A DNA stretch of 64,000 nucleotides from Escherichia phage BEU50, in sequence record OM632671.1; one strand, 5' to 3'. The position numbers and the translations under genes were made by a program. Of this stretch, positions 27,916 through 28,984 are shown piece after piece (within the stretch, counting starts at the first letter, position 1; each line of letters starts with the position of its first letter). The notes beneath the pieces are model-generated. The model did not search any database, had not been told where the DNA came from, and saw only the letters and a program-made list of their open reading frames with translations.

Positions 27916-28038
27916 GTATCTTTTGCGTAAAATGCGCCTTTAAACGGTAACGTTTATCGAAAACTCCTTTAATTGCTGGAAAGTCCTTTATAGGAAAACT
28001 AGCAGCCAAGGTTTTGCTTGCACCTTTAATTAGTATAA

Positions 28039-28046
28039 TATAAATA
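28039..28046 (+). promoter_or_regulatory. late promoter TATAAATA inside intron
   Basis: 28 nt upstream of the intron ORF start. Confidence 0.5.
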
Positions 28047-28073
28047 TGGTTATACTTTTAAGAGGATGCACAA

Positions 28074-28883
28074 TTGAACTATAGAAAAATTTGGATAGAT
28101 GCTAACGGACCTATACCTAAAGATTCTGATGGAAGAACATACGAAATCCATCATAAAGACGGTAACCGTGAAAATAATGATTTAGATAATTTGATGTGCC
28201 TTTCTATACAGGAACATTATGATATACATTTAGCTCAAAAAGATTACCAGGCTTGTCATGCTATAAAGCTTAGAATGAAATATTCTCCTGAAGAAATTTC
28301 TGAATTAGCTTCTAAAGCCGCAAAATCTAGAGAAATCCAGATTTTTAATATCCCTGAAGTACGAGCTAAAAATATTGCCTCTATTAAATCTAAGATAGAA
28401 AATGGTACATTTCATCTTTTAGATGGTGAAATACAGCGTAAATCTAATTTAAATAGAGTTGCATTAGGTATACATAATTTTCAACAAGCTGAGCATATTG
28501 CAAAAGTTAAAGAACGCAATATTGCAGCTATAAAAGAAGGTACTCATGTATTTTGCGGTGGTAAAATGCAGTCAGAAACTCAATCAAAACGGGTAAATGA
28601 CGGTTCACATCATTTCTTATCAGAAGACCATAAGAAAAGAACATCAGCAAAAACATTAGAAATGGTTAAGAACGGGACCCATCCTGCACAAAAAGAAATC
28701 ACATGTGATTTTTGTGGTCACATTGGTAAAGGTCCTGGATTTTATCTAAAACATAATGACAGATGTAAATTAAATCCAAATAGAATTCAATTGAATTGTC
28801 CATATTGTGATAAGAAAGATTTATCACCATCAACATATAAACGATGGCACGGCGACAATTGCAAAACAAGGTTCAACGACTAG
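28074..28883 (+). CDS. intron-encoded HNH homing endonuclease (I-TevIII-like), full length
   Basis: 269 aa; apparent TTG start 8 nt after AAGAGGA; EIHHKDGNRENNDLDNL HNH motif; C-terminal zinc finger. Confidence 0.8.
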   Translation: MNYRKIWIDANGPIPKDSDGRTYEIHHKDGNRENNDLDNLMCLSIQEHYDIHLAQKDYQACHAIKLRMKYSPEEISELASKAAKSREIQIFNIPEVRAKNIASIKSKIENGTFHLLDGEIQRKSNLNRVALGIHNFQQAEHIAKVKERNIAAIKEGTHVFCGGKMQSETQSKRVNDGSHHFLSEDHKKRTSAKTLEMVKNGTHPAQKEITCDFCGHIGKGPGFYLKHNDRCKLNPNRIQLNCPYCDKKDLSPSTYKRWHGDNCKTRFND

Positions 28884-28984
28884 TCTTCGGACGTAGGGTC
28901 AAGCGACTCGAAATGGGGAGAATCCCTCCGGGATTGTGATATAGTCTGGACTGCATGGTAACATGCAGCAGTTCATAAGAGAAC

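What the first reader, a model, noticed from the sequence alone, without database searches (positions are those of the whole stretch)
27916..28984. nrdB group I intron with a full-length, TTG-initiated I-TevIII-like HNH gene and a free-standing paralogue
The NrdB frame is interrupted between the conserved NALEA and EIMEGNAK regions by about 1.1 kb containing a 269 aa HNH ORF with its own late promoter and RBS but an apparent TTG start. A second HNH ORF (1875-2672) begins with the same MNYRKI peptide and overlaps the gene 39 stop. T4 is reported to carry a truncated I-TevIII while an intact version exists in other T-evens. Two related endonucleases in different contexts suggests recent mobility.
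Basis: partly seen in the sequence, partly recalled or inferred. Interest (0 to 1): 0.5.

Follow-up and report, generated by a model that had tools for sequence, protein, structure and literature searches.

The report
Known nrdB intron with I-TevIII
This is the already well-studied self-splicing intron in the T4-type phage gene nrdB, carrying its full-length homing endonuclease I-TevIII; the only oddity is a one-base deletion just upstream in the exon that would break NrdB if it is not a sequencing error.

Summary
The intron carries a 269-aa HNH ORF (28074-28883) with a TTG start, a Shine-Dalgarno sequence, a T4 late promoter and a hairpin that sequesters the ribosome-binding site.

The element is already known. 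It is 99-100% identical to the characterised nrdB introns of RB3 and T4. The protein is identical to that of phage a20 and differs from RB3 I-TevIII at two residues. At least 76 deposited phages carry the full-length form.

The TTG start matches the RB3 annotation and the residue numbering of the published enzyme.

The "free-standing paralogue" (1875-2672) is a Mob-type HNH gene, related to MobE and MobA. It shares only the HNH motif with I-TevIII (34% over 56 aa), so it says nothing about recent mobility.

One thing was missed. The window lacks one T in exon 1 (GAAGC^ATTCG, 27903/27904), 24 nt before the 5' splice site. Homology-fixed splicing therefore gives a frameshifted, truncated NrdB, and restoring the T gives a normal 392-aa protein. 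No other sequence searched has this deletion.

The window also has three synteny-breaking junctions found in no deposited phage, so an assembly artefact cannot be excluded.

Interest is low.

The parts
27254..27928 (+). nrdB exon 1. It is 675 nt here and 676 nt in all relatives.
   Evidence: Alignment with T4, RB3 and a20. The exon-1 ORFs of relatives are 678 nt including the TAA in the intron.
27903..27904 (+). Site of a unique 1-nt deletion. The window reads GAAGC^ATTCG where every other sequence reads GAAGCTATTCG. It lies 24 nt upstream of the 5' splice site and shifts the NrdB frame.
   Evidence: The deleted form is absent from all collections searched.
27912..27915 (+). Positions that correspond to the I-TevIII cleavage sites, -16 and -14 from the insertion site, in intron-less alleles.
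   Evidence: Published mapping (PMC1865063) transferred to window coordinates.
27929..29018 (+). Group I intron of 1090 nt, the T-even nrdB intron. It starts AAAAUGCGCC and ends ...ACAUACG, with the terminal G at 29018.
   Evidence: Rfam Intron_gpI gives partial matches.
27925..27937 (+). P1 helix: exon GCGU pairs with the internal guide GCGC. U27928-G27934 is the wobble pair at the 5' splice site.
   Evidence: all four pairs in 10 of 10 introns.
27941..28017 (+). 5' half of the ribozyme core:
- P2: 27941-27956
- P3 5' strand: 27964-27969
- P4: 27974-27979 / 27999-28004
- P5: 27984-27995
- P6 5' strand: 28005-28007
- P6a 5' strand: 28011-28017
   Evidence: Weak Rfam match at 27974-28051 to model positions 60-139.
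28013..28038 (+). Operator-like copy of the homing site, 18 of 24 identical to the reconstructed exon junction. It abuts the late promoter.
   Evidence: 0 of 500 shuffles reach this match. Proposed as an autorepression site in PMC2988022.
28019..28070 (+). RNA hairpin that pairs the Shine-Dalgarno sequence with upstream intron sequence. It can form only on transcripts that start upstream of the late promoter.
   Evidence: -15.3 kcal/mol, z -3.86. Mechanism described in PMC2988022.
28039..28046 (+). T4 late promoter TATAAATA.
28060..28066 (+). Shine-Dalgarno AAGAGGA, 7 nt upstream of the TTG start.
28074..28883 (+). I-TevIII gene: 269 aa, TTG start, looped out of P6a. Its last ~8 codons and its stop codon are part of P6a', P6' and P7.
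28861..29018 (+). 3' half of the ribozyme core:
- P6a': 28861-28867
- P6': 28870-28872
- P7: 28878-28882 / 28942-28946
- P7.1: 28883-28892
- P7.2: 28896-28909
- P3': 28915-28920
- P8: 28921-28935
- P9: 28951-28968
- P9.1: 28971-28984
- P9.2: 28986-29009
- terminal G: 29018
29019..29521 (+). nrdB exon 2. It starts GTACCTTTAAC and carries the ARDEQLH iron-ligand motif.
1875..2672 (+). Free-standing Mob-type HNH endonuclease gene of 265 aa. Its ATG overlaps the TAA of the unsplit gene 39. It is not a close relative of I-TevIII.

Best explanation
**What it is.** The locus is the classical T-even phage nrdB group I intron in its full-length, RB3-type form.

**Splicing (inferred by near-identity to characterised introns).** The 1090-nt RNA folds into the group I core, P1 to P9.2 with P7.1 and P7.2. 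It excises itself and joins ...UUUGCGU to GUACCUUU....

**The endonuclease.** The loop of P6a carries the gene for I-TevIII. This is a dimeric HNH endonuclease with two zinc fingers. [quoted passage not shown]

**Control of expression.** I-TevIII is held back until late infection. On early and middle transcripts a hairpin hides its Shine-Dalgarno sequence. Transcripts that start at the internal late promoter lack the 5' arm of that hairpin, so translation can begin at UUG. An operator-like copy of the homing site next to the promoter may allow autorepression.

**The second HNH gene.** The gene after gene 39 is an unrelated Mob-family free-standing endonuclease.

**The deletion.** In this copy one T is missing from exon 1. 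As written, the spliced mRNA encodes a truncated NrdB. I lean slightly towards a sequence or assembly error over a true knockout (confidences 0.55 and 0.38 under the rival explanations).
For: **Shown here:**
- Splice sites are fixed by alignment with T4 (598-nt intron) and RB3, and by seven intron-less alleles that read ...GC(G/A)T|G(T/C)AC... contiguously.
- The intron is 99.3-100% identical to T4 and 96-99% identical to RB3 outside the T4 deletion.
- Every pair of P1-P9.2 forms in 10 nrdB introns. There is one compensatory change (G-C to A-U in P9) and three one-sided changes.
- The Rfam group I model matches the 3' core at E 4.8e-07.
- There is a U-G pair at the 5' splice site and a terminal G.
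- The I-TevIII protein is identical to that of a20 and has 2 differences from RB3. H26, H27, N39, H48 and both CX2CX12-13HX3C fingers are intact.
- It matches Pfam HNH_3 and phrog_12324 end to end.
- The hairpin scores -15.3 kcal/mol with z -3.9. The late promoter and SD are in place. The operator-like site is 18/24 identical to the homing site.
- 76 phage records carry the full-length form.
- Identity to T4 and RB3 falls from 99-100% in the intron to 72-75% in distal exon 2 and denA. This is the signature of horizontal spread of the intron.

**Taken from papers:**
- RB3 intron mobility, the cleavage position, dimer formation and the zinc fingers (PMC1865063).
- Late-promoter and hairpin control, and the operator proposal (PMC2988022).
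Against: - Rfam's gathering threshold is not reached (35.6 against 50 bits; no hit in the default scan). The model cannot bridge the ~840-nt insertion in P6a.
- Splicing and endonuclease activity are inferred from near-identity, not measured.
- With the sequence as given, the exon junction yields a frameshifted NrdB. The usual proof that splicing restores the frame fails unless one base is restored.
- D23Y, three residues before the catalytic H26, differs from the biochemically tested RB3 enzyme. It is shared with a20.
Confidence: 0.95

Rival explanations
1. The 1-nt deletion in exon 1 is a sequencing, polishing or assembly error. The real phage then has an ordinary, functional intron-containing nrdB.
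For: - The deleted form is found nowhere else. It is absent from 187 matching phage records, IMG/VR, metagenome contigs, genome contigs, and all 10 intron-containing and 7 intron-less alleles examined.
- Restoring one T gives a perfect 392-aa NrdB.
- The window contains three junctions (6157/6158, 17016/17017, 24536/24537) that break T4-type gene order. None is spanned by any of 50,697 phage records.
- The deletion lies in the interval where the window switches from RB3/T4-like to a20-like sequence (27805-28139). That interval runs into the stretch that is nearly identical in both lineages, where an assembler working on a mixed sample would be expected to switch parents.
Against: - No other unique frameshift was found when T4, a20 and fPS-2 ORFs were compared with the window.
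- The site is not a homopolymer (GCTATT to GCATT).
- No reads are available to check.
Confidence: 0.55
2. The deletion is real and nrdB is a fresh pseudogene. The spliced mRNA gives 217 native residues plus 26 out-of-frame residues and lacks the exon-2 iron ligands. The phage would then rely on the host's ribonucleotide reductase, while the intron and I-TevIII remain intact.
For: - The sequence as given.
- Otherwise clean reading frames across the compared genes of the window.
- From 27805 to 29958 the window is identical to a20 except for this deletion and one substitution at 28049. That fits a very recent change.
- From established knowledge, not tested here: T4 nrd mutants are viable because the host enzyme can supply dNTPs.
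Against: - It is a singleton, seen in no other genome or metagenome.
- nrdA and the rest of nrdB show no decay.
- The chimeric look of the window lowers trust in single-base detail.
Confidence: 0.38
3. One reading: the two HNH genes (28074-28883 and 1875-2672) are recent paralogues, and their presence in two contexts shows recent endonuclease mobility.
For: Both begin MNYRKI and both have an N-terminal HNH motif.
Against: - Only 19/56 identities, with nothing beyond residue 56.
- Different Pfam and PHROG families, and different DNA-binding modules: zinc fingers against NUMOD3.
- The second gene is 44-56% identical to T4/RB3 MobE and the T4 mobA remnant.
- It sits at the same place in at least 27 other phages.
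Confidence: 0.03
4. The insertion is not spliced. nrdB is a split gene that makes two polypeptides, with a free-standing HNH gene between the two halves.
For: Several GenBank records annotate two separate 'beta subunit' CDSs flanking the endonuclease.
Against: - The flanking non-coding parts form the complete group I core and are 99-100% identical to the T4 intron. By established knowledge, not tested here, that intron self-splices.
- The second fragment has no start codon or SD at the junction.
- Intron-less alleles are colinear exactly at the predicted junction.
Confidence: 0.01

Closest known systems
Phage RB3 nrdB intron with intact I-TevIII (KM606994 / AY262130; Robbins et al. 2007, PMC1865063)
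   Same: - Same insertion site, same architecture and the same 269-aa ORF starting at the same TTG.
- 99.3% identity across the ORF and the 5' part of the intron.
- All catalytic and zinc-finger residues are conserved.
   Different: - Two amino-acid changes, D23Y and A265T.
- The 3' core is the T4 haplotype rather than the RB3 one: 5 substitutions, including a compensated P9 pair, plus a 1-nt indel near the 3' end. The intron is 1090 nt against 1091 nt.
- RB3 has mobE between nrdA and nrdB. The window has none.
- RB3 has the intact exon-1 frame.
Phage T4 nrdB intron (598 nt) with defective I-TevIII (NC_000866)
   Same: - Same splice sites.
- The 3' core is 100% identical and the 5' part 99.3% identical.
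   Different: - T4 lacks 492 nt inside the ORF (window ~28137-28628), which leaves a 97-aa remnant annotated from another ATG.
- According to PMC2790892, the T4 intron depends on MobE for trans-homing.
Escherichia phage a20 (OQ067374, Mosigvirus) nrdB-denA locus
   Same: Identical from 27805 to 29958, covering the end of exon 1, the intron, I-TevIII, exon 2 and denA. It also has the same Mob-type HNH gene after gene 39, with a 100% identical protein.
   Different: - a20 has the T at 27903/27904 and an A at 28049.
- Its nrdA and the first ~550 nt of its nrdB are only ~80% identical to the window, which is RB3/T4-like there.
- a20 keeps normal T4-type gene order.
T4 MobE / MobA free-standing HNH endonucleases (comparison for the ORF at 1875-2672)
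   Same: - The N-terminal HNH region is 54% identical to T4 MobE over 76 aa, 44% to RB3 MobE over 133 aa, and 56% to the T4 mobA remnant over 45 aa.
- It sits next to the topoisomerase large-subunit gene, as mobA does.
- It is promoter-less and coupled to the upstream gene through TAATG.
   Different: - Here gene 39 is unsplit (606 aa) and the endonuclease follows it. In T4, mobA lies between the split genes 39 and 60.
- Target site and activity are unknown.

Membership tests
Group I self-splicing intron (T-even nrdB intron, IA-type core with P7.1/P7.2) | Conserved core helices P3-P9, including the P7 guanosine-binding helix, in the canonical order. | tested here: met
   Every pair of P1-P9.2 forms in the window and in 9 other nrdB introns, with 1 compensatory and 3 one-sided changes. 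The nested helices are recovered by free-energy folding of an ORF-less construct.
Group I self-splicing intron (T-even nrdB intron, IA-type core with P7.1/P7.2) | Match to the Rfam RF00028 covariance model at its gathering score. | tested here: inconclusive
   No hit at the gathering threshold. With the E-value threshold, the 3' core scores 35.6 bits (E 4.8e-07) and the 5' core 12.3 bits. The model cannot span the ~840-nt ORF insertion in P6a. This is a detection threshold, not a structural criterion.
Group I self-splicing intron (T-even nrdB intron, IA-type core with P7.1/P7.2) | U at the end of the 5' exon, wobble-paired to G in P1, and G as the last intron nucleotide. | tested here: met
   U27928-G27934 and G29018.
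Group I self-splicing intron (T-even nrdB intron, IA-type core with P7.1/P7.2) | The predicted exon junction equals the contiguous sequence of intron-less alleles and the junction in characterised homologues. | tested here: met
   T4 and RB3. Intron-less loci L003 and L015-L020 read across the junction.
Group I self-splicing intron (T-even nrdB intron, IA-type core with P7.1/P7.2) | Self-splicing activity. | not testable with these tools
   Inferred from 99-100% identity to the T4 intron, which is reported to self-splice (established knowledge).
I-TevIII (intron-encoded HNH homing endonuclease) | Full-length similarity to the characterised RB3 enzyme. | tested here: met
   267 of 269 residues identical. 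phrog_12324 matches residues 1-269 of 269 at E 2e-193.
I-TevIII (intron-encoded HNH homing endonuclease) | Catalytic H26, H27, N39 and H48, and two CX2CX12-13HX3C zinc fingers (C211/C214 and C242/C245). | tested here: met
   All are present at those positions when numbering starts at the TTG codon. The residue list comes from PMC1865063. Pfam HNH_3 at E 6e-13.
I-TevIII (intron-encoded HNH homing endonuclease) | Encoded in a peripheral loop (P6a) of the nrdB intron, with its own late promoter and a sequestered ribosome-binding site. | tested here: met
   Described in PMC2988022.
I-TevIII (intron-encoded HNH homing endonuclease) | Cleavage of intron-less nrdB at -14/-16 and promotion of homing. 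| not testable with these tools
   Known for RB3. The D23Y variant has not been assayed.
Functional class Ia ribonucleotide reductase beta subunit gene (nrdB) | Uninterrupted reading frame after splicing that includes the exon-2 iron-ligand motif. | tested here: not met
   The spliced sequence is 1178 nt, with a frameshift after residue 217 and a stop after 26 further codons. Restoring one T gives 392 aa, 371 of 393 aligned positions identical to RB3 NrdB.
Mob-type free-standing HNH endonucleases (MobA-MobE), for the ORF at 1875-2672 | N-terminal HNH region similar to Mob proteins, with NUMOD-type DNA-binding repeats. | tested here: met
   54% identity to T4 MobE, 44% to RB3 MobE and 56% to the T4 mobA remnant. 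NUMOD3 at E 4.7e-09, with weak HNH hits. phrog_655 'homing endonuclease' at E 1e-56.
Mob-type free-standing HNH endonucleases (MobA-MobE), for the ORF at 1875-2672 | Site-specific cleavage of an allele that lacks the endonuclease gene. | not testable with these tools
   BLASTP gives 19/56 identities at E 0.003 and nothing further. The Pfam and PHROG families differ.

The most novel reading that the evidence does not exclude
The 1-nt deletion is real and is a scar of the recombination or homing event that joined an RB3/T4-like nrdA-nrdB 5' region to an a20-like intron-exon 2 region.

It lies inside the crossover interval (27805-28139) and 9-11 bp upstream of the I-TevIII cleavage positions. On this reading, repair of an endonuclease-made break has just inactivated the host gene that the intron lives in.

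Residual NrdB could perhaps be made by -1 slippage of tRNA-Phe on the U5 run (GUUUUUA, 27908-27914) right after the deletion. That slip would restore the frame with only two residues changed (IR to FV).
Probability: 0.12. Interest if true: 0.35.

Novelty: already known. Interest (0 to 1): 0.12.

Why it matters
The element itself adds nothing new. The full-length nrdB intron with I-TevIII has been known since the RB3 work, is biochemically characterised, and is present in dozens of deposited T4-like genomes.

The case has some practical value for annotation:
- Many GenBank records still list two "beta subunit" fragments and a "hypothetical protein" at this locus.
- A TTG start hides the endonuclease from ATG-only gene callers.

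If the exon-1 deletion were real, it would be a small, concrete example of a homing element outliving the gene it inhabits. It would also be a testable case of break-repair mutagenesis next to a homing site. That remains unproven and may be an artefact.

Tried and rejected
**Rfam default scan.** The scan of the whole window found nothing. Only the permissive scan picked up the two halves of the core.

**Tracing the source genome by exact-protein lookup.** Three lookups found nothing on record: the frameshifted exon-1 product, the truncated rIIA that spans junction 1, and gp34. The source genome could not be traced, and no independent assembly could be used to check the deletion.

**Searching for the deleted form elsewhere.** It was not found in IMG/VR, metagenome contigs or genome contigs. 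The wild-type control was found in 2 and 8 contigs.

**An alternative 5' splice site that would restore the frame.** Splicing after U27923 would do so arithmetically. It has no P1 support and would replace the conserved IRFYVSFAC segment, so I rejected it (inference).

**A canonical -1 frameshift heptamer in the shifted frame.** None is present by inspection. Only a single-tRNA slip on the U5 run is conceivable. I kept this as a low-probability idea.

**uvsW as a second frameshift.** The uvsW / uvsW.1 split relative to T4 looked like one. It is shared at 100% identity with RB69 and nearly all of the 150 matching records, so it is a lineage feature.

**Microhomology at the three odd junctions.** The check was uninformative with the parents available.

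**The paralogue idea.** Rejected.

Full report
**What is at the coordinates.** The window is DNA of a T4-like phage (Straboviridae, Tevenvirinae). Around the finding lie nrdA (24938-27202), two nrdB pieces, denA (29548-29958) and rnlA (30015-31139). The nrdB frame stops shortly after ...HVINALEA and resumes at ...TFNFHKNMEIMEGNAK. Between the pieces is a 269-aa ORF (28074-28883) whose first possible start codon is TTG.

**Fixing the intron boundaries.** I aligned the window with T4 (NC_000866) and RB3 (KM606994). In T4, counting from the annotated gene gives exon 1 ending ...TTTGCGT, a 598-nt intron and exon 2 starting GTACCTTT. Splicing there reproduces the 388-aa NrdB. The same sequences in the window give:
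- exon 1: 27254-27928
- intron: 27929-29018 (1090 nt; RB3 has 1091)
- exon 2: 29019-29521

Seven intron-less alleles read straight across this junction. One came from IMG/VR (L003). Six were found through the identical NrdA protein (L015-L020).

**Is it a group I intron?** Rfam's default scan found nothing. With a permissive threshold, RF00028 matched the 3' core (28728-28968, 35.6 bits, E 4.8e-07) and weakly matched the 5' core (27974-28051). The score falls short because about 840 nt of ORF-bearing sequence sit in the P6a loop, between the 5' strand (to 28017) and the 3' strand (from 28861).

I drew P1-P9.2 by hand and tested every pair on ten nrdB introns:
- All pairs form in all ten. The single exception is one P5 pair in T4, at its 1-nt deletion (an alignment gap).
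- P9 shows a compensatory G-C to A-U change.
- P6a, P7.2 and P9 each show a one-sided change that keeps pairing.
- The 5' splice site has the U-G wobble (U27928-G27934), and the intron ends in G29018.

Free-energy folding of an ORF-less construct recovers P4, P5, P6, P6a, P7.1, P7.2, P9, P9.1 and P9.2. It cannot draw the P3/P7 pseudoknot. The 3' core is 100% identical to T4, and the 5' part is 99.3% identical. Splicing competence is inferred from that identity, not measured.

**The endonuclease.**
- The ORF product is identical to that of phage a20 and differs from RB3 I-TevIII only at D23Y and A265T.
- It matches Pfam HNH_3 (E 6e-13) and the 269-position PHROG 12324 end to end.
- The residues shown by mutagenesis to be needed are all present when numbering starts at the TTG: H26, H27, N39, H48, and C211/C214 and C242/C245 of the two CX2CX12-13HX3C fingers (PMC1865063).
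- The RB3 GenBank CDS starts at the same TTG.
- The next in-frame ATG (M41) would remove the catalytic histidines. The TTG start is therefore correct, conserved and already annotated.
- T4 lacks 492 nt inside this ORF.

**Control of expression.**
- TATAAATA (28039-28046) and AAGAGGA (28060-28066, 7 nt before the TTG) are present.
- The segment 28019-28070 folds into a hairpin that pairs the Shine-Dalgarno sequence (-15.3 kcal/mol, z -3.86). The late promoter lies within it, so late transcripts lack the 5' arm.
- This is the published control scheme for the T4 intron endonucleases (PMC2988022).
- Next to the promoter, 28013-28038 is 18/24 identical to the reconstructed homing site (0 of 500 shuffles reach this). 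This matches the proposed I-TevIII operator.

**The second HNH gene.** The ORF at 1875-2672 starts MNYRKI, and its ATG overlaps the TAA of an unsplit 606-aa gene 39.
- It shares only 19 of 56 residues with I-TevIII, around the HNH motif.
- It carries NUMOD3 repeats instead of zinc fingers and belongs to PHROG 655.
- It is 44-56% identical to T4/RB3 MobE and the T4 mobA remnant.
- At least 27 other phages have it at the same place, and a20's copy is identical in protein.

It is a Mob-type free-standing endonuclease, not a recent paralogue of I-TevIII.

**Real evidence for intron mobility.** Against T4 and RB3, identity is 99-100% in the intron. It falls to 93% in the first 60 nt of exon 2, 86% in the next 120 nt, and 72-75% in distal exon 2 and denA. 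The same intron thus sits in diverged backgrounds, with short co-conversion tracts. About 76 of 783 phage records that match the locus carry the full-length form.

- The window reads GAAGC-ATTCG where T4, RB3, a20 and every other allele read GAAGCTATTCG. Exon 1 is 675 nt instead of 676.
- Spliced as is, NrdB goes out of frame after residue 217 and stops 26 codons later, before the exon-2 ARDEQLH iron-ligand motif. Restoring one T gives a 392-aa protein, like RB3's.
- None of 187 matching phage records is identical across the site.
- The deleted form is absent from IMG/VR, metagenome contigs, genome contigs and the exact-protein index. The wild-type form is present in controls.
- The deletion lies 24 nt upstream of the splice site, outside P1. 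It is 9-11 bp upstream of the published -14/-16 cleavage positions.

**Real mutation or artefact?**

For a real mutation:
- Comparison of T4, a20 and fPS-2 ORFs with the window found no other unique frameshift.
- The apparent uvsW split is shared with RB69 and its relatives.

For an artefact:
- The window is a patchwork. Positions 1-6156 are a20-like. At 6157/6158 rIIA is cut, and sequence from the vs/tk/nrdC/49/nrdD region follows. At 17016/17017 nrdD is cut and the 5' end of gene 37 follows. At 24536/24537, part of gene 59 together with 32, frd and td is missing.
- None of these three junctions is spanned by any of 50,697 phage records.
- Within nrdB itself the window switches parent. Upstream of about 27805 it is RB3/T4-like (97-98% identical) and only about 80% identical to a20. 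From 27805 to 29958 it is identical to a20 except for the deletion and an A-to-G change at 28049.
- The crossover interval runs into the stretch shared by both lineages, where an assembler working on a mixed sample could switch parents.

I put an artefact slightly ahead of a real knockout.

**Verdict.** It carries one unexplained single-base deletion whose status needs the reads.

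Noticed in passing
window 6157/6158, 17016/17017, 24536/24537: Three junctions break T4-type gene order. rIIA is cut about 178 nt before its end and joined to the vs.6/regB/tk/nrdC/49/nrdD region. nrdD is cut after about 333 codons and joined to the 5' end of gene 37 and gene 36. Gene 59 is cut and joined about 400 nt upstream of nrdA, so 32, frd and td are missing. No deposited phage spans any of these junctions. This is either a chimeric assembly or a heavily rearranged genome.
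   Followed up: partly
window 27805-28139: The window switches parent inside nrdB exon 1 or the 5' part of the intron. Upstream it is RB3/T4-like (97-98% identical) and only ~80% identical to a20. Downstream it is 100% a20-like through denA. The two changes unique to the window (the deletion at 27903/27904 and A-to-G at 28049) both lie in this interval.
   Followed up: yes
window 27203-27253: There is no mobE or nrdB.1 between nrdA and nrdB. The 51-nt spacer holds only a terminator-like hairpin (27210-27227). T4 and RB3 carry mobE here.
   Followed up: partly
window 28066-28077: A three-codon mini-ORF, ATG CAC AAT TGA, starts inside the Shine-Dalgarno sequence. Its TGA overlaps the TTG start of I-TevIII (AATTGA). 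It is conserved in T4 and RB3. Whether it affects initiation at UUG is unknown.
   Followed up: no
window 28293-28415 (I-TevIII residues 74-114): Pfam FlgM (anti-sigma-28 factor) matches the linker region of I-TevIII just above its curated cut-off (26.2 against 25 bits, E 9e-06). It is probably a chance resemblance between helical segments, but it is curious for a protein proposed to repress its own late promoter.
   Followed up: no
window 15206-16027: A 273-aa ORF with a NUMOD3 repeat lies between gene 49 and nrdD, where fPS-2 annotates a homing endonuclease. It is 31% identical to the C-terminal half of the Mob-type ORF at 1875-2672 and unrelated to I-TevIII.
   Followed up: partly
window 54337-56065 (minus strand): uvsW is split into a 504-aa ORF and a following ~70-aa ORF in another frame, whereas T4 has a single 587-aa ORF. 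The stretch is 100% identical in RB69 and nearly all of the 150 matching records, so this is a lineage feature and not an error in this window.
   Followed up: yes
window 2715-3815: A conserved 366-aa ORF lies downstream of the Mob-type gene. It has no Pfam match, belongs to PHROG 8302 (unknown function), and is called a glycosyltransferase in one record, NRG-P0074.
   Followed up: no
loci L005, L009-L013 (GenBank records of a20, WFL6982, EC128, e11/2, G10400, PTE-Eco05): These records annotate nrdB as two separate CDSs rather than one joined, spliced gene. Two of them (WFL6982 and G10400) call I-TevIII 'hypothetical protein'.
   Followed up: no
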